Shown here: positions 5,376-59,162 of the stretch, in pieces | Layout: each line of letters starts with the position of its first letter | Numbering within the stretch: the stretch's first letter is position 1 | NCBI RefSeq assembly: GCF_044324875.1 | Contig: NZ_CP172185.1 | Length of the DNA stretch: 64,000 nt | Strand: one strand, 5' to 3' | DNA from: Escherichia coli | Lineage (GTDB): Bacteria > Pseudomonadota > Gammaproteobacteria > Enterobacterales > Enterobacteriaceae | Made by a program: the position numbers and the translations under genes | The notes under the pieces: generated by a model | Seen by the model: only the letters and a program-made list of their open reading frames with translations | Database searches by the model: none | What the model was told of the DNA's origin: nothing

Positions 5376-5620
5376 AGGGTTCCTCAGCTCGCTGACAAGT
5401 CGACCCATCTGTCCATTGAGCGGACAGTTTGTGCAACACTATTTTGTTGACCGGAAAATGGAACACTTTCCGCAATGCCTGTTGCTATCACGCTTAAACC
5501 ATTTCATTGCGATTTACACAGAACGGACGTCCTGTCGCAGTATATTAAGTCGTCGATAGAAACAAGCATTGAAAGGCACAGCAGTAGTCAAACAGTGTGA
5601 AACGCTACTGGTGCCTTACA

Positions 5621-5655
5621 GCGCAAAAAGGCTGGTGACTAAAAAGTCACCAGCC
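5621..5655 (-). terminator. rplL-rpoB intergenic attenuator (partial intrinsic terminator)
   Basis: On - strand: GGCTGGTGACTTTTTAGTCACCAGCC hairpin followed by TTTTTGCGC, between rplL stop and rpoB start; matches the known attenuator position. Confidence 0.7.
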
Positions 5656-5694
5656 ATCAGCCTGATTTCTCAGGCTGCAACCGGAAGGGTTGGC

Positions 5695-6063
<369 letters not shown>

Positions 6064-6129
6064 TTAAATTGTTCCTGAATATCAGAATAAGTTTATACGT
6101 AAGCGAATGCGTTAAAAAGATAACTGCGA

Positions 6130-6627
6130 TTAAGCAGCTTCTTTCGCATCGCGTACAGCAGCCAGAGTACGAACCAGTTTGCCAGCCGAAGCTTCTTTCA
6201 TGGTTGCCATCAGGCGTGCAATTGCTTCTTCGTAGGTCGGCAGAGTTGCCAGGCGGTCGATCTGAGACGCCGGGATCAGCTCACCTTCAAAGGCAGCGGC
6301 TTTGACCTCAAATTTTGCATTCGCTTTCGCGAACTCTTTGAACAGACGAGCAGCAGCGCCCGGGTGTTCCATAGAGTATGCAATCAGGGTCGGACCAACA
6401 AACGCGTCTTTCAGGCACTCGAACGGAGTACCTTCAACAGCACGGCGCAGCAGGGTGTTACGAACAACACGCATGTATACGCCAGCTTCGCGACCTGCTT
6501 TACGCAGTTCAGTCATTTTATCTACAGTCACGCCACGGGAATCCGCAACTACTGCAGACAGCGCGCCTTTGGCTACTTCGCTGACTTCAGCAACAATCGC
6601 TTGTTTGTCTTGAAGATTTAAAGCCAT
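6130..6627 (-). CDS. rplJ: 50S ribosomal protein L10
   Basis: ORF translation [63 protein letters not shown]..., 165 aa. Confidence 0.97.
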
Positions 6628-31535: not shown

Positions 31536-32687
31536 ATGAAAAACAAATTACCGCCATTTATCGAGATTTACCGTGCTCTGATTGCCACACCTTCAATAAG
31601 CGCCACGGAAGAGGCACTCGATCAAAGCAATGCAGATTTAATCACTCTGCTGGCGGACTGGTTTAAAGATTTAGGCTTCAATGTGGAAGTGCAGCCTGTG
31701 CCAGGAACTCGCAACAAATTTAATATGCTGGCAAGTACCGGACAGGGGGCTGGCGGTTTGTTGCTGGCGGGGCATACCGATACGGTGCCATTTGATGACG
31801 GACGCTGGACGCGCGATCCGTTTACACTGACGGAGCATGACGGCAAGCTTTACGGCTTAGGCACCGCCGACATGAAAGGCTTTTTTGCGTTTATCCTTGA
31901 TGCGCTACGCGATGTCGACGTCACGAAACTGAAAAAACCGCTCTACATTCTGGCGACTGCCGATGAAGAAACCAGTATGGCCGGAGCGCGCTATTTTGCC
32001 GAAACTACCGCCCTGCGCCCGGATTGCGCCATCATTGGCGAACCGACGTCACTACAACCGGTACGCGCACATAAAGGTCATATCTCTAACGCCATCCGTA
32101 TTCAGGGCCAGTCGGGCCACTCCAGCGATCCAGCACGCGGAGTTAACGCTATCGAACTGATGCACGACGCCATCGGGCATATTTTGCAATTGCGCGATAA
32201 GCTGAAAGAACGTTATCACTACGAAGCGTTTACCGTGCCATACCCTACGCTCAACCTCGGGCATATTCACGGTGGCGATGCATCTAACCGTATTTGCGCT
32301 TGCTGTGAATTGCATATGGATATTCGTCCGCTACCGGGCATGACACTCAACGAGCTAAACGGTTTGCTCAACGACGCGCTGGCTCCGGTGAGCGAACGCT
32401 GGCCGGGTCGTCTGACGGTCGACGAGCTGCATCCGCCGATCCCTGGCTATGAATGCCCACCAAATCATCAACTGGTTGAAGTGGTTGAGAAATTGCTCGG
32501 AGCAAAGACCGAAGTGGTGAATTACTGTACCGAAGCGCCGTTTATTCAAACGTTATGCCCGACGCTGGTTCTGGGGCCGGGTTCCATCAATCAAGCCCAT
32601 CAGCCTGATGAATATCTGGAGACGAGGTTTATCAAGCCCACCCGTGAGCTGATCACCCAGGTAATTCACCATTTTTGCTGGCATTAA
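31536..32687 (+). CDS. argE: Acetylornithine deacetylase
   Basis: ORF 31497..32687 contains [67 protein letters not shown]...; start placed at MKNKLPP (383 codons). Confidence 0.94.
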
Positions 32688-32730
32688 AAAAGCAAATCAG
32701 GCTGATGACAAAGCCATGCAAGCGCACGGA

Positions 32731-32778
32731 CAGTCCCCTCGCCCCTTCGGGGAGAGGGTTAGGGTGAGGGGAAAACCG
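32731..32778. repeat. GC-rich intergenic repeat unit (boxC-like family)
   Basis: CAGTCCCCTCGCCCCTTCGGGGAGAGGGTTAGGGTGAGGGGAAAACCG downstream of argE; same motif family recurs at 48275..48384. Confidence 0.6.
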
Positions 32779-33098
32779 TGCCCATACTGACCCGTAAGCG
32801 AGTTTGTCAGCAATCTCAAATGATGCCCAAATGGTAACTACAACTCATAACTCTTTGGTGTTACTTGAGGCGATTTTTTAACATTTCCATAAGTTACGCT
32901 TATTTAAAGCGTCGTGAATTTAATGGCGTAAATTCCTGCTATTTATTCGTTTGCTGAAGCGATTTCGCAGCATTTGACGTCACCGCTTTTACGTGGCTTT
33001 ATAAAAGACGACGAAAAGCAAAGCCCGAGCATATTCGCGCCAATGCGACGTGAAGGATACAGGGCTATCAAACGATAAGATGGGGTGTCTGGGGTAAT

Positions 33099-35750
33099 AT
33101 GAACGAACAATATTCCGCATTGCGTAGTAATGTCAGTATGCTCGGCAAAGTGCTGGGAGAAACCATCAAGGATGCGTTGGGAGAACACATTCTTGAACGC
33201 GTAGAAACTATCCGTAAGTTGTCCAAATCTTCACGCGCTGGCAATGATGCTAACCGCCAGGAGTTGCTCACCACCTTACAAAATTTGTCGAACGACGAGC
33301 TGCTGCCCGTTGCGCGTGCGTTTAGTCAGTTTCTGAACCTGGCCAACACCGCCGAGCAATACCACAGCATTTCGCCGAAAGGCGAAGCTGCCAGCAACCC
33401 GGAAGTGATCGCCCGCACCCTGCGCAAACTGAAAAACCAGCCGGAACTGAGCGAAGACACCATCAAAAAAGCAGTGGAATCGCTGTCGCTGGAACTGGTC
33501 CTCACGGCTCACCCAACCGAAATTACCCGTCGTACACTGATCCACAAAATGGTGGAAGTGAACGCCTGTTTAAAACAGCTCGATAACAAAGATATCGCTG
33601 ACTACGAACACAACCAGCTGATGCGCCGCCTGCGCCAGTTGATCGCCCAGTCATGGCATACCGATGAAATCCGTAAGCTGCGTCCAAGCCCGGTAGATGA
33701 AGCCAAATGGGGCTTTGCCGTAGTAGAAAACAGCCTGTGGCAAGGCGTACCGAATTACCTGCGCGAACTGAACGAACAACTGGAAGAGAATCTCGGCTAC
33801 AAACTGCCCGTCGAATTTGTTCCGGTCCGTTTTACCTCGTGGATGGGCGGTGACCGCGACGGCAACCCGAACGTCACTGCCGATATCACCCGCCACGTCC
33901 TGCTGCTCAGTCGCTGGAAAGCCACCGATCTGTTCCTGAAAGATATTCAGGTGCTGGTTTCTGAACTGTCGATGGTTGAAGCAACCCCTGAACTGCTGGC
34001 GCTGGTCGGCGAAGAAGGTGCCGCAGAGCCGTATCGCTATCTGATGAAAAACCTGCGTTCTCGCCTGATGGCGACACAGGCATGGCTGGAAGCGCGCCTG
34101 AAAGGCGAAGAACTGCCAAAACCAGAAGGCCTGCTGACACAAAACGAAGAACTGTGGGAACCGCTCTACGCTTGCTACCAGTCCCTTCAGGCATGTGGCA
34201 TGGGTATTATCGCCAACGGCGATCTGCTCGACACCCTGCGCCGCGTGAAATGTTTCGGCGTACCGCTGGTCCGTATTGATATCCGTCAGGAGAGCACCCG
34301 CCATACCGAAGCATTGGGCGAGCTGACCCGCTACCTCGGTATCGGCGACTACGAAAGCTGGTCAGAGGCCGACAAACAGGCGTTCCTGATCCGCGAACTG
34401 AATTCCAAACGTCCGCTTCTGCCGCGCAACTGGCAACCAAGCGCCGAAACGCGCGAAGTGCTCGATACCTGCCAGGTGATTGCCGAAGCGCCGCAAGGCT
34501 CCATTGCCGCCTACGTGATCTCGATGGCGAAAACGCCGTCCGACGTGCTGGCTGTCCACCTGCTGCTGAAAGAAGCGGGTATCGGGTTTGCGATGCCGGT
34601 TGCTCCGCTGTTTGAAACTCTCGATGACCTGAACAACGCCAACGATGTCATGACCCAGCTGCTGAATATCGACTGGTATCGCGGCCTGATTCAGGGCAAA
34701 CAGATGGTGATGATTGGCTATTCCGACTCAGCAAAAGATGCGGGCGTGATGGCGGCTTCCTGGGCGCAATATCAGGCACAGGATGCATTAATCAAAACCT
34801 GCGAAAAAGCGGGTATTGAACTGACGTTGTTCCACGGTCGCGGCGGTTCCATTGGTCGTGGCGGCGCACCTGCTCATGCGGCGCTGCTGTCACAACCGCC
34901 AGGAAGCCTGAAAGGCGGCCTGCGCGTGACTGAACAGGGCGAGATGATCCGCTTTAAATATGGTCTGCCAGAAATCACCGTCAGCAGCCTGTCGCTGTAC
35001 ACTGGGGCGATTCTGGAAGCCAACCTGCTGCCACCGCCTGAGCCGAAAGAGAGCTGGCGTCGCATTATGGATGAACTGTCAGTCATCTCCTGCGATCTCT
35101 ACCGTGGCTACGTACGTGAAAACAAAGATTTTGTGCCTTACTTCCGCTCCGCTACGCCGGAACAAGAATTGGGTAAACTGCCGTTGGGTTCACGTCCGGC
35201 GAAACGTCGCCCGACCGGCGGCGTCGAGTCGCTGCGCGCCATTCCGTGGATTTTTGCATGGACGCAAAACCGCCTGATGCTCCCCGCCTGGCTGGGTGCA
35301 GGTACGGCGCTGCAAAAAGTGGTCGAAGATGGCAAACAGAGCGAGCTGGAGGCTATGTGCCGCGATTGGCCATTCTTCTCGACGCGTCTCGGCATGCTGG
35401 AGATGGTCTTCGCCAAAGCAGACCTGTGGCTGGCGGAATACTATGACCAACGCCTGGTAGACAAAGCACTGTGGCCGTTAGGTAAAGAGTTACGCAATCT
35501 GCAAGAAGAAGACATCAAAGTGGTGCTGGCGATTGCCAACGATTCCCATCTGATGGCCGATCTGCCGTGGATTGCAGAGTCTATTCAGCTACGGAATATT
35601 TACACCGACCCGCTGAACGTATTGCAGGCCGAGTTGCTGCACCGCTCCCGCCAGGCAGAAAAAGAAGGCCATGAGCCGGATCCTCGCGTCGAGCAGGCGT
35701 TAATGGTCACTATTGCCGGGATTGCGGCAGGTATGCGTAATACCGGCTAA
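33099..35750 (+). CDS. ppc: Phosphoenolpyruvate carboxylase
   Basis: ORF translation [93 protein letters not shown]...IAAGMRNTG, 883 aa. Confidence 0.97.
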
Positions 35751-47092: not shown

Positions 47093-48196
47093 ATGGACCG
47101 TATTATTCAATCACCGGGTAAATACATCCAGGGCGCTGATGTGATTAATCGTCTGGGCGAATACCTGAAGCCGCTGGCAGAACGCTGGTTAGTGGTGGGT
47201 GACAAATTTGTTTTAGGTTTTGCTCAATCCACTGTCGAGAAAAGCTTTAAAGATGCTGGACTGGTAGTAGAAATTGCGCCGTTTGGCGGTGAATGTTCGC
47301 AAAATGAGATCGACCGTCTGCGTGGCATCGCGGAGACTGCGCAGTGTGGCGCAATTCTCGGTATCGGTGGCGGAAAAACTCTCGATACTGCCAAAGCACT
47401 GGCACATTTCATGGGTGTTCCGGTAGCGATCGCACCGACTATCGCCTCTACCGACGCACCGTGCAGCGCATTGTCTGTTATCTACACCGATGATGGTGAA
47501 TTTGACCGCTATCTGATGTTGCCAAATAACCCGAATATGGTCATTGTCGACACCAAAATCGTCGCTGGCGCACCTGCACGTCTGTTAGCGGCGGGTATCG
47601 GCGATGCGCTGGCAACCTGGTTTGAAGCACGCGCCTGTTCCCGTAGCGGCGCTACCACTATGGCGGGCGGCAAGTGTACCCAGGCGGCGCTGGCACTGGC
47701 AGAACTGTGCTACAACACTCTGCTGGAAGAAGGCGAAAAAGCGATGCTTGCCGCCGAACAGCATGTAGTGACTCCGGCGCTGGAGCGCGTGATTGAAGCG
47801 AACACCTATTTGAGCGGCGTTGGTTTTGAAAGCGGCGGGCTGGCGGCGGCTCACGCGGTGCATAACGGCCTGACCGCTATCCCGGACGCGCATCACTATT
47901 ACCACGGTGAAAAAGTGGCATTTGGTACGCTGACGCAGCTGGTTCTGGAAAATGCGCCGGTGGAGGAAATCGAAACCGTAGCTGCACTTAGCTATGCGGT
48001 AGGTTTGCCAATAACTCTCGCTCAACTGGATATTAAAGAAGATGTCCCGGCGAAAATGCGAATTGTGGCAGAAGCGGCATGTGCAGAAGGTGAAACCATC
48101 CACAACATGCCTGGCGGCGCGACGCCAGATCAGGTTTACGCTGCACTGCTGGTAGCCGACCAGTACGGTCAGCGTTTCCTGCAAGAGTGGGAATAA
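47093..48196 (+). CDS. gldA: Glycerol dehydrogenase
   Basis: ORF 47054..48196 contains [81 protein letters not shown]...; start placed at MDRIIQ (367 codons). Confidence 0.94.
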
Positions 48197-48205
48197 CCTA
48201 CTCCA

Positions 48206-48229
48206 AACTCCCGGCTTGTCCGGGAGTTT
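48206..48229 (+). terminator. gldA intrinsic terminator
   Basis: AAACTCCCGGCTTGTCCGGGAGTTT perfect hairpin just after the gldA stop. Confidence 0.7.
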
Positions 48230-48274
48230 GAGAGTGCAGGCAAAGTGGCTCACTCGTCACTGCGGGCATGTTTT

Positions 48275-48384
48275 TCCCCCTCGCCCTTTCAGGGAGAGGG
48301 TCGGGATGAGGGTAAATATTCGCCCCGGAGCTGGCCTGTTCCCCTCACCCTAACCCTCTCCCCAAAGGGGAGAGGGGACTGTTC
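48275..48384. repeat. Inverted pair of GC-rich intergenic repeat units (boxC-like family)
   Basis: TTCCCCCTCGCCCTTTCAGGGAGAGGGTCGGGATGAGGGTAAAT (48275..48318) and its near reverse complement TTCCCCTCACCCTAACCCTCTCCCCAAAGGGGAGAGGGGACTG (48340..48384); same family as 32731..32778. Confidence 0.6.
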
Positions 48385-48526
48385 GAGCACTTTTTATACG
48401 TTATCACCCGTCTGAAACTCCCACGTTGTTCAGGAATTTTTTATCCGCTTCTGGACATTTTCTCTACAGAACAATCGTTAGCCCGGAAGGTCGAATCTGT
48501 GACTCTTATTTTCACGGACGAACCAG

Positions 48527-49144
48527 ATGAAAGCTTCACTGGTGCTGGTCAGCCTGCTAACGGCGTTTACCAGCCACTCCTTAAAATCTCCCGCCGTTCC
48601 ACCAACCGTGGTACAAATCCAGGCCAACACCAACCTTGCCATCGCAGACGGTGCCAGACAGCAAATCGGCAGCACGCTATTTTACGATCCGGCGTATGTG
48701 CAGCTTACCTATCCTGGCGGTGATGTCCCGCAAGAACGCGGCGTATGTTCCGATGTGGTGATCCGCGCCTTGCGCAGCCAGAAGGTCGATTTGCAGAAAC
48801 TGGTTCACGAAGATATGGCGAAGAATTTTGCTGAGTACCCGCAAAAATGGCAGTTAAAGCGCCCGGACAGCAACATCGATCACCGTCGGGTGCCTAATCT
48901 GGAAACCTGGTTTAGCCGCCACGATAAAACACGCCCCACCAGCAAGAACCCCGGTGATTATCAAGCGGGCGATATTGTCTCCTGGCGATTAGATAACGGG
49001 CTGGCGCATATTGGGGTGGTTTCAGATGGCTTCGCCCGCGACGGTACGCCGCTGGTGATACATAACATTGGCGCAGGCGCGCAGGAAGAAGACGTGCTGT
49101 TTAGCTGGCGGATGGTGGGGCACTATCGGTATTTTGTTAAATAA
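48527..49144 (+). CDS. yijF: DUF1287-family protein YijF (predicted periplasmic, signal peptide)
   Basis: ORF translation MKASLVLVSLLTAFTSHSLKSPAVPPTVVQIQANTNLAIADGARQQIGSTLFYDPAYVQLTYPGGDVPQERGVCSDVVIRALRSQ..., 205 aa. Confidence 0.9.
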   Translation: MKASLVLVSLLTAFTSHSLKSPAVPPTVVQIQANTNLAIADGARQQIGSTLFYDPAYVQLTYPGGDVPQERGVCSDVVIRALRSQKVDLQKLVHEDMAKNFAEYPQKWQLKRPDSNIDHRRVPNLETWFSRHDKTRPTSKNPGDYQAGDIVSWRLDNGLAHIGVVSDGFARDGTPLVIHNIGAGAQEEDVLFSWRMVGHYRYFVK

Positions 49145-56766: not shown

Positions 56767-59162
56767 ATCGCCCCGGCGGTGACATCGCGCCCTGCGCCTG
56801 GTCCGCGGATCACCAGAGGGTTATCGCGATACCAGCGGCTTTCGATGGCAAAGACGTTATCGCACGGCAGCAGTGATGCCAGCGGATGGTCTTCACGCAC
56901 CGCTTCCACGCCCACACGCGCTTTGCCATTGGCATCGAAACGCGCCACATAGCGCAGCACCAGCCCCATTTCGCGGGCCGCTTCCAGTCGTTGCACCATC
57001 TGCTCGTTAAGTTCATCGCCGTTTTCAAAGAAATGGTCGATGCTACCGCCTTCGCAATGGGCAGGCACCAGCGATTCCACGCGCACCTGATCTGGTTCGA
57101 TGTCGTAACCCGCTTCACGCGCCAGAATCACCAGCTTGCGCATCACGTCTTTGCCGGAAAGGTCATCACGCGGATCAGGCTCGGTTAAGCCCTGCTGCCA
57201 CGCCTGATCCACCAGCTCGGTAAACGGCACGCTACCGTCGAATTGCAGGAACAGCCAGGAGAGCGTGCCGGAGAAGATCCCGCTGATCGACAAAATAGTA
57301 TCGCCGCTGTCGATCAGATCGCGCACGGTATGGTTGATCGGCAAGCCCGCACCGACGGTGGCGTTGTACAGCCAGTGACGCCCGGTTTTTTCGAAGGCGT
57401 CGTGGATCTGGCGATATTTATTGCTGTCGCTGGCTCCCGCCAGTTTGTTGGCGCTGATGACGTGGAAACCGTGGCTGGCAAAATCGAGATACTGATCAGC
57501 AAGCTGCTGGCTGGCGGTAACGTCCAACACCACTAAATCATCATACGGATGGGCGCGCATCCACAGGAACAGCGACTCTTCATCCTGCTCGACCGCTTCA
57601 TCGTTGAAGAAGGCTAACGCGCGGCTGGCGTCCAGCCCGTCATAGCTCAACAGGCTGCGGCGGCTGTCCACCACGCCTGCCAGCACAAATTCAAAGCCGG
57701 TACGCGCCGAAAGCGTGCTCTGCTCACGGGCGAACAGTTCCAGCCAGCGGGAACCGATATTGCCCTTGCCGAACAATACCAGGCCGATGCGTTTTTCTGC
57801 GCGGAAGACGGACTGATGCAGCCCCTGAATCAGGCTTTCGGTTGGTCCGGTGCGCAGTACTGCCACCAGGCTGATGCCGTCATCGGACTGCCAGGTAAAT
57901 TCGACCGGCTGGCCTTTCAGTTGCTGCCAGAAGCGGTGGCAATGCAGCGGGTTACGGGTGACACCCGCCCCAACCATCGCCACCAGCGCCAGCCCCTGAC
58001 GCAGGCGCAGTTCGCCAGGTAATCCCGCTTCGTCGAGGATTTTCAGCGCACTGTCGGCCACTTCTGAGGTGTAGCAAAATTGCAGCAACTGGCGATCGTT
58101 ATGCACGCCAACCGCCAGTGGGCGCACCTGAGCACGTTTCAGGATCTGGTCGATCTCTTTATGCGCCAGTTTGAAATCCTGGCTGGCGGGCACCTGAAAC
58201 TCAATCAAGCAGACATCATCATGGCTGGTGACAATACGCGCACCAGTACCGGAGGCCAGCACGCGTTCAATGCGCGTGGAACCTTGATCCGGCGTGTAGC
58301 TACAGCGCAGTTGCAGGTCGATTTCGCTGCCAGAAACTGGCTGTAAAGTACGGGCGTGAAGAACGGGAGCCGCCAGACGCGCCAGTTCGCTGGCCTCATC
58401 CAGACGCAGCAACGGCAGCAGGCAGGCATCTTTCACTTTACGCGGGTCGGCGCTGTATACCCCGGCGACGTCGCTCCAGATGGTTACGCGGGAAACTCCC
58501 GCCAGCGCACCGATTTGTGTCGCGGAATAGTCGGAACCGTTACGCCCCAGCAGCACCGTTTCACTGGCGTTGTTACGGCTGATAAACCCGGTCACCACCA
58601 GACGTTTGCCCGGATGTTGTACCAGTAGCTGTTGCAGCAACGGGTAAGAAAGTCCTTCATCAACCTGCGGTTGCGCAGCGCGTTCAGCGCGTAAAAACTC
58701 GCGGGCATCAAGCCAGGCCGCTGGCAGCCCTTGTTGATTAAGTACCGCAGACATCAGGCGCGCCGACCACACTTCGCCGTGGCCCACCACTTCCGCATAC
58801 ACCGCGTCGTTAATACCGCTGTCGAGCAGCGCCGCCAGGCGTTCCAGATCGCTGACAAAAGCGCTAATGAGGCTATCGGCTTCTTCGGCGGGTAACAGGC
58901 CGCTAATCAGATCGCACTGATAGCGACGCAGCGTTTGTTGAACCTGATGCGCAGAGAGACGATCGGTCTGGCTTAGTTTCAACCAGTTAATCAACTGGTT
59001 AGTGGTGCTACCGGCGGCGGAAACCACCATCATATCGTCAGGCTGAGAGTACTCCGCCATAATGCCCGCGACACGCAAATAACACTTCACATCAGCCAGA
59101 CTACTGCCACCAAATTTATGCAGTTGACGACCTTTCGCCCCTGCCTGCGCAATCACACTCAT
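56730..59162 (-). CDS. metL: Bifunctional aspartokinase II / homoserine dehydrogenase II
   Basis: ORF translation MSVIAQAGAKGRQLHKFGGSSLADVKCYLRVAGIMAEYSQPDDMMVVSAAGSTTNQLINWLKLSQTDRLSAHQVQQTLRRYQ...DINRLAQLL, 810 aa. Confidence 0.96.
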   Translation of the reverse strand: MSVIAQAGAKGRQLHKFGGSSLADVKCYLRVAGIMAEYSQPDDMMVVSAAGSTTNQLINWLKLSQTDRLSAHQVQQTLRRYQCDLISGLLPAEEADSLISAFVSDLERLAALLDSGINDAVYAEVVGHGEVWSARLMSAVLNQQGLPAAWLDAREFLRAERAAQPQVDEGLSYPLLQQLLVQHPGKRLVVTGFISRNNASETVLLGRNGSDYSATQIGALAGVSRVTIWSDVAGVYSADPRKVKDACLLPLLRLDEASELARLAAPVLHARTLQPVSGSEIDLQLRCSYTPDQGSTRIERVLASGTGARIVTSHDDVCLIEFQVPASQDFKLAHKEIDQILKRAQVRPLAVGVHNDRQLLQFCYTSEVADSALKILDEAGLPGELRLRQGLALVAMVGAGVTRNPLHCHRFWQQLKGQPVEFTWQSDDGISLVAVLRTGPTESLIQGLHQSVFRAEKRIGLVLFGKGNIGSRWLELFAREQSTLSARTGFEFVLAGVVDSRRSLLSYDGLDASRALAFFNDEAVEQDEESLFLWMRAHPYDDLVVLDVTASQQLADQYLDFASHGFHVISANKLAGASDSNKYRQIHDAFEKTGRHWLYNATVGAGLPINHTVRDLIDSGDTILSISGIFSGTLSWLFLQFDGSVPFTELVDQAWQQGLTEPDPRDDLSGKDVMRKLVILAREAGYDIEPDQVRVESLVPAHCEGGSIDHFFENGDELNEQMVQRLEAAREMGLVLRYVARFDANGKARVGVEAVREDHPLASLLPCDNVFAIESRWYRDNPLVIRGPGAGRDVTAGAIQSDINRLAQLL

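What the first reader, a model, noticed from the sequence alone, without database searches (positions are those of the whole stretch)
48275..48384. Inverted pair of GC-rich boxC-like intergenic repeats downstream of gldA, with a third copy after argE
Two units of the motif CCCTC(G/A)CCC..GGGAGAGGG..GGGTGAGGG occur in opposite orientation after the gldA terminator, and a third copy lies at 32731..32778 downstream of argE. These small dispersed repeats can form extended secondary structure and act as recombination or insertion hotspots or mRNA stabilisers. Their presence is ordinary for E. coli, but they mark the variable spacers of this window.
Basis: seen in the sequence. Interest (0 to 1): 0.15.

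Follow-up and report, generated by a model that had tools for sequence, protein, structure and literature searches.

The report
BoxC triplex-motif repeats replacing BIMEs
These are three copies of BoxC, a well-known small G/C-rich repeat scattered between E. coli genes; they are ordinary, but in this strain they sit exactly where most E. coli strains carry a different repeat (a BIME), and they share that repeat's end sequences.

Summary
Three units of CCCTCNCCC-loop-GGGAGAGGG-loop-GGGTGAGGG are present: 48278-48312 (+), 48342-48376 (-) and 32736-32770 (+). None is expected by chance. They belong to a described family: BoxC, also called the PIT element or TMECO (Holder 2015, PMC4666352). It has a median of 19 places per complete E. 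coli genome. The gldA pair is the known inverted arrangement, a TTA-loop type A unit facing a type-B-like unit (TCG loop) that carries one mutation.

New detail:
- Both spacers are polymorphic. The BoxC allele occurs in 640 of 5426 genomes at gldA-yijF and 284 of 5426 at argE-ppc. The sampled other genomes carry REP/BIME elements between the same flanks.
- Four other Escherichia lineages have a BIME-1 at gldA-yijF, so BoxC looks derived there.
- BoxC units are cores of a composite of about 180 bp, bounded by inverted 15-nt end motifs (GAGAnTGnTGACAAA).
- The argE copy is a 120-bp solo, formed by an internal deletion between direct repeats.
- The same end motifs flank BIME-1 units.

Function is not shown. 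Published work found a triplex in vitro, none stable in vivo, no promoter or terminator activity, and local hypervariability. Interest is low.

The parts
48204..48230 (+). Hairpin h1 just after the gldA stop (CAAACTCCCGG-CTTGT-CCGGGAGTTTG), the presumed gldA terminator. It forms the conserved left flank of the variable segment.
   Evidence: Perfect 11-bp inverted repeat I2. Conserved in both the BIME and BoxC alleles and in other Escherichia species. Not called by the terminator scan because it has no T tail.
48232..48410 (.). Allele-specific 179-bp segment: the BoxC composite element. In the sampled other E. coli genomes it is replaced by a roughly 122-bp BIME-1.
   Evidence: Alignment A1 of the window against A23, JA0266 and MS 21-1. 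640 of 5426 genomes carry this allele.
48230..48244 (+). Left (B-side) end motif GAGAGTGCAGGCAAA of the composite.
   Evidence: Two mismatches to GAGANTGNTGACAAA. It sits 33 nt from the TM core, the same distance as in the MG1655 ygfF-gcvP pair.
48278..48312 (+). BoxC/TMECO unit 1, type-B-like (loop 2 is TCG) and degenerate: CCCTCGCCC-TTTCA-GGGAGAGGG-TCG-GGATGAGGG.
   Evidence: It has 8 of 9 Watson-Crick pairs and 8 of 9 Hoogsteen-compatible triplets, and fails the strict pattern by one base.
48313..48340 (+). Conserved inner spacer TAAATATTCGCCCCGGAGCTGGCCTGTT between the two units.
   Evidence: Conserved in four B(+)/A(-) pairs: the window and MG1655 ygfF-gcvP, fepB-entC and alx-sstT.
48342..48376 (-). 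BoxC/TMECO unit 2, type A (loop 2 is TTA), perfect: CCCTCTCCCCTTTGGGGAGAGGGTTAGGGTGAGGG.
   Evidence: All 9 Watson-Crick pairs and all 9 Hoogsteen-compatible triplets are present. The G-rich strand also fits a G-quadruplex pattern.
48400..48414 (-). Right (A-side) end motif, degenerate. The + strand reads GTTATCACCCGTCTG; its reverse complement is CAGACGGGTGATAAC.
   Evidence: Four mismatches, but at the family-typical distance of 23 nt from the type A core.
48415..48444 (+). Hairpin h2, a degenerate second copy of h1 followed by a T run (AAACTCCCACGTTGTTCAGGAATTTTTTAT). It forms the conserved right flank.
   Evidence: Direct repeat D1, 76% identical to h1. It is a perfect terminator-like hairpin in L141.
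32690..32852 (.). Allele-specific segment of the argE-ppc spacer. Other strains have 1 REP, or 1, 2 or 3 BIME units here.
   Evidence: The BoxC allele occurs in 284 of 5426 genomes.
32698..32712 (+). A-side end motif CAGGCTGATGACAAA of the solo element.
   Evidence: Two mismatches, 23 nt upstream of the TM core.
32736..32770 (+). BoxC/TMECO unit 3, type A with one Watson-Crick mismatch ('A mm'): CCCTCGCCCCTTCGGGGAGAGGGTTAGGGTGAGGG.
32771..32802 (+). B-side outer arm, fused directly to unit 3. This is the trace of the deletion that removed the type B unit and the spacer.
   Evidence: The 35 nt after unit 3 match the 35 nt outside unit 1 of the gldA pair at 25 of 35 positions without gaps (by eye from the sequences). 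One search aligns this arm with the B-side arms of the pairs; one search placed it differently.
32803..32817 (-). B-side end motif. The + strand reads TTTGTCAGCAATCTC; its reverse complement is GAGATTGCTGACAAA.
   Evidence: Zero mismatches to the motif. Its 14-mer is identical to a BIME-1 flank in E. whittamii at L154:3532.

Best explanation
These are copies of BoxC (also called the PIT element or TMECO), a non-coding dispersed intergenic repeat of E. coli and related Enterobacteriaceae. They most likely do nothing for the cell.

Shown:
- The gldA-yijF copy is a full-length composite of about 180 bp: an end motif, a 33-nt arm, a type-B-like unit, a conserved spacer of about 28 nt, an inverted type A unit, a 23-nt arm, and the inverted end motif.
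- The argE-ppc copy is a 120-bp solo of the same element. It was formed by a deletion between two direct repeats inside the composite: GGGTGAGGGG (block 3 of the A unit) and GGGCGAGGGGG (the complement of block 1 of the B unit).
- The composite's 15-nt end motifs are the same motifs that flank BIME-1 elements.
- In this lineage the BoxC cassette sits, between unchanged flanks, where the sampled other E. coli genomes and four other Escherichia lineages carry a BIME-1 (gldA-yijF) or REP/BIME arrays (argE-ppc).

Inferred: the cassette was copied in from a paralogous site. Either recombination used the shared end motifs as short homology, or the unidentified mechanism that spreads BIMEs did it. 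The allele then spread vertically.

What the element can do is structural. It can form a long hairpin or cruciform, an intrastrand purine-motif triplex, or a G-quadruplex when single-stranded. The likely consequence is local instability (deletions and replacements) rather than gene regulation.
For: Family identity:
- All three units fit the published consensus, and the A and B types and A+B inverted pairs are as described.
- Median of 19 places per genome.
- No Rfam family matches.

Composite anatomy:
- The window pair is 83.8% identical over 185 columns to the MG1655 ygfF-gcvP pair, arms and ends included.
- The end motif (3 or fewer mismatches) occurs in 7 of 32 flanks of 16 BoxC sites, against 0.74% of random 110-nt windows (binomial p = 3e-9).

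Solo by deletion:
- 25 of 35 ungapped matches in the arm (by eye from the sequences).
- One search aligns the solo's outer arm with the B-side arms of the pairs.

Shared ends with BIME-1:
- 15 of 16 motif occurrences in 51 kb of Escherichia loci abut a REP or a BoxC unit; see also alignment A4.

Replacement:
- Alignments A1 and A2 and the allele counts.
- BIME-1 is present at gldA-yijF in E. albertii, E. whittamii, Escherichia sp. E1V33 and L141.
- Both BoxC alleles are linked in strain NRZ14408.

Structure:
-.

Literature (PMC4666352):
- Triplex in vitro, but no stable triplex in vivo.
- No promoter or terminator activity.
- Loci are hypervariable.
- Palindromic pairs are prone to partial deletion.
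Against: - No experiment bears on these particular copies.
- The direction of change at argE-ppc was not polarised with outgroups.
- The right end motif of the gldA pair is weak (4 mismatches).
- The end motif was partly derived from the flanks later used to test it.
- Only 5 of 16 sites keep a clearly recognisable end.
- REPs are so common in E. coli 3' spacers that finding a REP allele opposite a BoxC allele is partly expected.
- No donor locus was identified.
- Both elements lie at the 3' ends of genes, where BIMEs are reported to stabilise mRNA, so a neutral role is assumed rather than shown.
Confidence: 0.6

Rival explanations
1. [quoted passage not shown] A transposase supplied in trans recognises the 15-nt terminal inverted motifs and moves BoxC cassettes, and BIME-1 units with the same ends, into sites next to terminator hairpins.
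For: - Imperfect terminal inverted repeats lie at fixed distances from the core.
- The same ends occur on BIME-1.
- Three different inserts share one junction, GGGAGTTT|sAGA, at gldA-yijF.
- An independent BoxC pair lies right after gldA in another genus (L179).
- TnpA(REP) cleaves and recombines BIME DNA in vitro (PMC3333891).
Against: - There is no consistent target-site duplication: AAAT/AAAT at the argE solo, but GTTT/AAAC and CTTT/AAAA at the pairs (read from the sequences).
- Copies are diverged (61-84% between pairs), so there has been no recent burst.
- Holder et al. found no transposase or integrase near any TMECO site.
- TnpA(REP) needs the REP hairpin with GTAG, which BoxC lacks.
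Confidence: 0.2
2. The elements are functional 3'-UTR RNA structures. Their hairpins protect the gldA and argE mRNAs from 3' exonucleases or help termination, doing the job that BIMEs do at the same sites in other strains.
For: - They lie immediately downstream of the stop codons, on the transcribed strand side.
- The RNA fold is very stable (z -4.9).
- The argE unit is not preceded by an obvious terminator.
- They occupy exactly the positions of BIMEs, for which mRNA stabilisation and termination are reported.
Against: - Published tests of PIT elements found no terminator or promoter activity and no effect on RNA polymerase.
- Family members lie in both orientations and more often upstream of ORFs, with no preferred distance.
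- The gldA pair lies after hairpin h1.
- The hairpins have no T tail.
- There is no Rfam match.
Confidence: 0.12
3. The elements act at the DNA level as non-B structures selected for a role. Triplex, G-quadruplex or cruciform formation would pause replication or organise the nucleoid, or would be kept as a source of adaptive local variation, as Holder et al. speculate.
For: - Triplet bookkeeping is 9/9 and 9/9 for unit 2, and all three G-rich strands fit a G4 pattern.
- Triplex formation in vitro with Tm of 70-82 C, and polymerase stops.
- The exact 9-mers recur in very diverse contigs.
- The loci are hypervariable.
Against: - In vivo DMS footprinting showed no protection, and duplex formation wins when the complementary strand is present.
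- Unit 1 has accumulated a triplet-breaking mutation.
- The alleles are dispensable, being absent from 88-95% of strains.
- Hypervariability may simply reflect the repeat-rich nature of these spacers.
Confidence: 0.08

Closest known systems
BoxC (Bachellier/Hofnung), also called the PIT element (Hoyne & Maher 2000) or TMECO (Holder et al. 2015, PMC4666352)
   Same: - Same three-block consensus and the same type A unit.
- Same kind of inverted pair: a TTA-loop unit facing a non-TTA-loop unit about 27 nt away.
- Intergenic location.
- Roughly 20-30 copies per E. coli genome.
- Strain-to-strain variability.
   Different: - Neither site holds a TMECO in MG1655.
- Unit 1 is one base off the strict pattern.
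- The papers I could read do not mention the composite with arms and 15-nt end motifs, or the solo-by-deletion origin. I could not read the older BoxC papers (Bachellier, Rudd 1999).
BIME-1 / RIP (REP y + L linker with IHF site + REP z1)
   Same: - Same 15-nt inverted end motifs (AGAnTGnTGACAA).
- On the z1/A side the similarity continues for about 12 more nt (read by eye).
- Similar overall size (about 150-185 bp).
- Same intergenic sites and the same junctions, with presence or absence varying among strains.
   Different: - The inner palindromic units are BoxC triplex motifs, not REPs.
- There is no GTAG/CTAC.
- There is no L linker or IHF site.
- No REP sequence occurs anywhere in this 64-kb window.
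Bacterial MITEs (for example ERIC/IRU, Correia/NEMIS, RUP)
   Same: - Small, non-coding and dispersed.
- Imperfect terminal inverted repeats.
- Folds into a long hairpin.
   Different: - No consistent target-site duplication.
- No known parent IS or transposase.
- Copies are old and diverged.

Membership tests
BoxC / PIT / TMECO | Sequence fits 5'-CCCTCNCCC-N3-6-GGGNGAGGG-N3-GGGNGAGGG-3' | tested here: met
   Units 2 (48342-48376, -) and 3 (32736-32770, +) match exactly. Unit 1 (48278-48312) misses by one base (GGATGAGGG); the same site matches in strain MS 21-1.
BoxC / PIT / TMECO | Three blocks able to form C:G*G, T:A*A and T:A*T triplets (purine-motif intrastrand triplex) | tested here: met
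   By base bookkeeping only. Watson-Crick and Hoogsteen-compatible counts are 8/9 and 8/9 for unit 1, 9/9 and 9/9 for unit 2, and 8/9 and 9/9 for unit 3. Physical triplex formation was not testable here.
BoxC / PIT / TMECO | Dispersed, multi-copy, strictly intergenic in E. coli | tested here: met
   Median 19 and maximum 33 places per genome in 5425 of 5426 genomes. All three units lie between annotated genes.
BoxC / PIT / TMECO | Inverted pairs combine a type A unit (loop 2 = TTA) with a type B unit (loop 2 = CCG in the paper's definition; its Table 1 also files CTG and TCG loops under B) | tested here: met
   Unit 2 has TTA and unit 1 has TCG. The layout and the conserved spacer match the MG1655 pairs TMECO 10+11 and 12+13.
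BoxC / PIT / TMECO | Match to the original 56-bp BoxC consensus of Bachellier et al. | not tested
   The original consensus was not available in the library. Equivalence of BoxC with PIT and TMECO is taken from PMC4666352. The conserved 5' extension GnGCnCnnnnCnGTC gives a unit of about 56 bp.
REP / BIME | Palindromic unit (REP y, z1 or z2) with a GTAG/CTAC foot | tested here: not met
   No REP consensus or core occurs in the elements or anywhere else in the window.
REP / BIME | BIME-1 outer flanking motifs | tested here: met
   AGAnTGnTGACAA flanks BIME-1 units in L141, L145 and L154, and BoxC sites in the window, L006, L013 and L182.
MITE | Terminal inverted repeats | tested here: met
   Imperfect 15-nt inverted motifs at both ends, with 0 and 2 mismatches to the motif at argE and 2 and 4 at gldA.
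MITE | Target-site duplication of fixed length | tested here: not met
   AAAT/AAAT at the argE solo, but no direct repeat at the gldA, ygfF or alx pairs (read from the sequences). The 25-nt h1/h2 repeat is also present around the BIME alleles.
MITE | Cognate transposase with matching ends | not tested
   None is known. Holder et al. report none near TMECO sites. The 15-nt ends are too short to search the 28-Gb collection.
Any Rfam RNA family | Covariance-model score at or above the gathering threshold | tested here: not met
   Only sub-threshold eukaryotic miRNA-hairpin hits, at most 29 bits against thresholds of 58-160.

The most novel reading that the evidence does not exclude
BoxC composites and BIME-1 elements would be two cargo versions of one scaffold. 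They share the same ~15-25-nt inverted ends and the same insertion junctions beside terminator hairpins, so cassettes are exchanged at fixed sites (BIME-1 in either orientation, BIME-1 arrays, or BoxC pairs at gldA-yijF). This would imply one common mobilising or recombining mechanism, and would give BoxC a route of spread for the first time.
Probability: 0.3. Interest if true: 0.4.

Novelty: already known. Interest (0 to 1): 0.15.

Why it matters
The finding itself matters little, because it is a textbook E. coli repeat.

The added anatomy could matter modestly. BoxC/TMECO has had no known way of spreading and no function for about 30 years. It shares its terminal motifs and exact insertion junctions with BIME-1, and solos arise from pairs by an internal deletion. 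Together these suggest a concrete, testable link to the REP/BIME system, and they explain part of the 'genomic instability' reported around these motifs.

In practice, these two spacers are useful lineage markers: the BoxC alleles occur in 12% and 5% of complete E. coli genomes.

Tried and rejected
- Rfam scan of 47900-48700 at E-value up to 10 gave only sub-threshold miRNA-like hairpin hits, so no RNA family.
- Promoter and terminator scans of both spacers found nothing convincing inside the repeats.
- BLAST of the arms alone (48226-48277 and 48379-48450) against 28 Gb found only the orthologous locus. The search is too insensitive for 50-70-nt flanks at about 75% identity, so it says nothing about repetition.
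- I looked for an 'empty' allele in E. coli and found none. Every sampled genome has BIME or BoxC at gldA-yijF, and REP/BIME or BoxC at argE-ppc.
- The third locus tested (ygfF-gcvP) is a larger indel: the ygfF gene plus the BoxC pair on one side, a REP-containing spacer on the other. It is not a clean cassette swap.
- Small ORFs across the pair (48216-48353, 48245-48415) were rejected as genes, because loop lengths vary from 3 to 6 nt among copies and break any reading frame.
- Target-site duplication is not consistent.
- The end-motif match at 58845 lies in coding-like sequence and is a chance hit.
- Phage carriage was rejected for curated phages: 3 of 50,697 records.
- A literature search for the BIME flanking 'A/B' motifs and for BoxC/RSA descriptions found no accessible text.

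Full report
**Observation**

- At 48277-48315 and 48339-48377 there are two 39-nt arms, 79% complementary and 23 nt apart.
- Each arm holds one unit of CCCTCNCCC-loop-GGGAGAGGG-loop-GGGTGAGGG. A third unit lies at 32736-32770.
- The 21-mer GGGAGAGGGTTAGGGTGAGGG matches three times in the window with 3 or fewer mismatches, against 0.00 in shuffles.
- gldA ends at 48196 and yijF starts at 48527. argE stops at 32687 and ppc starts at 33099.

**What it is**

The motif is the published consensus of BoxC, rediscovered as the PIT element (potential intrastrand triplex) and renamed TMECO by Holder et al. 2015 (PMC4666352).
- That paper lists 23 copies in MG1655. It defines type A by a TTA second loop and type B by CCG, and its Table 1 also files CTG and TCG loops under B.
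- It notes five inverted pairs, each combining an A with a B.
- Here units 2 and 3 are type A and match the strict pattern.
- Unit 1 has a TCG loop and one G-to-A change in block 3 (GGATGAGGG), so it fails the strict pattern by one base. Strain MS 21-1 has the unmutated form at the same site.
- A 55-nt query around unit 3 finds a median of 19 and a maximum of 33 places per genome in 5425 of 5426 complete E. coli genomes.
- Rfam has nothing.
- Neither of the two window sites holds a TMECO in MG1655.

**Both spacers are polymorphic**

gldA-yijF:
- Only 640 of 5426 genomes carry the BoxC allele.
- The sampled others have a BIME-1 (two inverted REPs with a long linker) between exactly the same flanks...GGGAGTTTGA | insert | TCTGAAACTCCCACG....
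- The allele-specific segment in the window is 48232-48410 (179 bp).

argE-ppc:
- Only 284 of 5426 genomes carry the BoxC allele.
- The sampled others have one REP, or one, two or three BIME units (spans of 591, 641, 764 and 887 against 701), again between fixed flanks, GGCATTAAAA | insert | CTTTGGTGTTA.

Other points:
- Strain NRZ14408 carries both BoxC alleles, including the unit 1 mutation, so they travel together.
- A scan of one genome per species with the gldA 3' end returned 43 Enterobacteriaceae loci.
- Among the 43 loci, yijF followed gldA only in four Escherichia. All four carry the BIME-1 allele: E. albertii, E. whittamii, Escherichia sp. E1V33 and the GTDB representative labelled E. 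coli (L141).
- I infer that BIME-1 is ancestral at this site and the BoxC pair derived.
- A fifth lineage, Escherichia sp. MOD1-EC7003, has an array of at least four BIME-1 units in the opposite orientation at the same junction.

**Anatomy beyond the 35-nt core**

- The window's 179-bp segment is homologous along its whole length to the MG1655 ygfF-gcvP pair (83.8% over 185 columns). It is 72-75% identical to the alx-sstT and fepB-entC pairs.
- Full-length element: an end motif, a 33-nt arm, a type B unit, a conserved spacer of 27-28 nt (TAAATATTCGCnCC...GGCCTGTT), an inverted type A unit, a 22-23-nt arm, and the inverted end motif.
- The end motif is about GAGAnTGnTGACAAA. In the window it lies at 48230-48244 (2 mismatches), 48400-48414 (inverted, 4 mismatches), 32698-32712 (2 mismatches) and 32803-32817 (inverted, 0 mismatches).
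- Across 16 BoxC sites, 7 of 32 flanks carry the motif with 3 or fewer mismatches, against 0.74% of random 110-nt windows (p = 3e-9). The motif was partly derived from two or three of these flanks, so the true significance is somewhat lower.

**The argE copy is a deletion derivative**

- The 35 nt after unit 3 (AAAACCGTGCCCATACTGACCCGTAAGCGAGTTTG) match the 35 nt outside unit 1 of the gldA pair (AAAAACATGCCCGCAGTGACGAGTGAGCCACTTTG) at 25 of 35 positions without gaps. I counted this by eye from the sequences.
- One search aligns this outer arm with the B-side arms of the pairs. One search placed it against the inner spacer instead.
- The junction falls in GGGTGAGGGG. In a pair this is a direct repeat of GGGCGAGGGGG, the complement of block 1 of the B unit.
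- A deletion between these repeats removes the B unit and the spacer, leaving a 120-bp solo with both end motifs.
- The MG1655 solos at adk-hemH and pstB-pstA keep the same distal end.
- This fits, and mechanistically explains, the partial deletions Holder et al. saw at palindromic sites.

**Shared ends with BIME-1**

- In 51 kb of Escherichia loci, 15 of 16 occurrences of AGANTGNTGACAA (1 or fewer mismatches) lie directly beside a REP of a BIME-1 or beside a BoxC unit. One of the REP cases is an independent E. whittamii locus whose 14-mer is identical to window 32803-32817.
- A BIME-1 unit and the BoxC pairs align at both ends and differ inside.
- At gldA-yijF the three insert types share one junction, GGGAGTTT|sAGA.
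- The insert lies between two copies of one terminator-like hairpin: h1 at 48204-48230 and h2 at 48415-48444. The two are 76% identical here and nearly identical in L141.

**How it most likely works**

Shown by prediction only:
- The pair folds into a roughly 100-nt hairpin as ssDNA (-30.2 kcal/mol, z -3.1) and as RNA (z -4.9).
- Each unit has two competing hairpins.
- Each has 8-9 of 9 compatible triplets for a purine-motif triplex, and its G-rich strand fits a G-quadruplex pattern.

Shown in the literature:
- A stable triplex forms in vitro, but there is no protection in vivo.
- There is no promoter or terminator activity.
- DNA polymerase is blocked in vitro.
- Variability is raised around the sites.
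- No transposase lies nearby.

My best reading (confidence 0.6) is a functionless, structure-prone repeat. It was placed here by replacing a BIME-1 through the shared ends, and then decayed by deletion and point mutation.

Rivals:

| Reading | Confidence |
|---|---|
| A trans-mobilised MITE | 0.2 |
| A 3'-UTR RNA stabiliser equivalent to BIMEs | 0.12 |
| A selected non-B DNA element | 0.08 |

**Comparison and novelty**

- Membership of BoxC/PIT/TMECO is met on sequence, copy number, intergenic location and pair organisation. The elements are not REPs.
- They resemble MITEs in having terminal inverted repeats, but they lack a consistent target-site duplication and a known transposase.
- The family, its pairs, its structures and its association with variable spacers are all published, so I file the finding as already known.
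- The accessible papers do not mention the composite with end motifs, the solo-by-deletion origin, the end sharing with BIME-1, or the BIME-to-BoxC replacement at two sites.
- Those points may be described in older papers I could not read (Bachellier, Gilson, Rudd 1999), so I do not claim them as new.

**Side observations**

- The strict TMECO pattern hits at least 120 stretches of IMG/VR contigs, with GC content from 0.32 to 0.74 and up to 7 copies per contig.
- Curated phage genomes almost entirely lack BoxC: 3 of 50,697 records.
- 518 of 72,556 plasmid records have matches. Several of the top E. coli rows are megabase-sized records.

Noticed in passing
window 48204-48230 and 48415-48444: The variable insert lies between two copies of the same terminator-like hairpin (AAACTCCC...GGGAGTTT). 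The second copy carries the T run. Both copies are present around the BIME alleles in other Escherichia too, and they are nearly identical in L141. It is unclear whether this is a long target duplication, part of the element, or an old tandem duplication.
   Followed up: partly
whole window (1-64000): No REP/BIME sequence was detected anywhere in the 64-kb window. The two spacers that hold BIMEs in most E. coli hold BoxC here.
   Followed up: partly
L015-L134 (IMG/VR contigs): The strict TMECO pattern occurs in at least 120 stretches of predicted viral contigs, with GC content from 0.32 to 0.74. Some have 3-7 copies (for example IMGVR_UViG_3300013136_000015). Several share the BoxC type A 5' extension CACGGnCnGTC. 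I did not establish whether these are real phage genomes or host flanks.
   Followed up: partly
phage records MG065686.1 and MG065691.1: Two 174-kb 'Campylobacter phage' records each hold three places matching the enterobacterial BoxC at about 91% identity. This is unexpected for a Campylobacter phage. Contamination or misassembly is possible.
   Followed up: no
L179 (Enterobacteriaceae MGYG-HGUT-00110), first 130 nt after the gldA stop: A divergently oriented BoxC pair sits immediately downstream of gldA in a genome where yijF does not follow gldA. This looks like independent occupation of the gldA 3' region.
   Followed up: no
L145 (Escherichia sp. MOD1-EC7003) 5572-6265: A tandem array of at least four BIME-1 units (period 160-168 bp), each bounded by the inverted end motifs. 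It sits at the gldA hairpin junction in the orientation opposite to the E. coli BIME-1.
   Followed up: partly
window 32818-32852: The 35 nt between the solo's end motif and the conserved flank (AAATGATGCCCAAATGGTAACTACAACTCATAACT) resemble the linker between BIME units of the multi-BIME alleles (CTCAAACGATGCCCAACTGTAGGCC). The BoxC allele therefore seems to keep a remnant of a BIME array.
   Followed up: partly
L006 / L135 / L136 (bglA-gcvP region): In roughly 44% of E. coli genomes, including the sampled O157:H7 and E2348/69 genomes, the ygfF gene together with its BoxC pair is absent and a REP-containing spacer is present instead. The breakpoint lies about 35 nt beyond the type A unit, at the composite's end motif.
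   Followed up: partly
window 48216-48353 and 48245-48415: Two mechanical ORFs (45 and 56 aa) run through the repeats. Such ORFs are probably a source of spurious 'hypothetical protein' calls.
   Followed up: no
PLSDB records such as NZ_CP141089.1 (4.9 Mb) and NZ_OL790696.1 (4.8 Mb): Several E. coli 'plasmid' records in the plasmid collection are chromosome-sized. This inflates the apparent plasmid carriage of BoxC.
   Followed up: no
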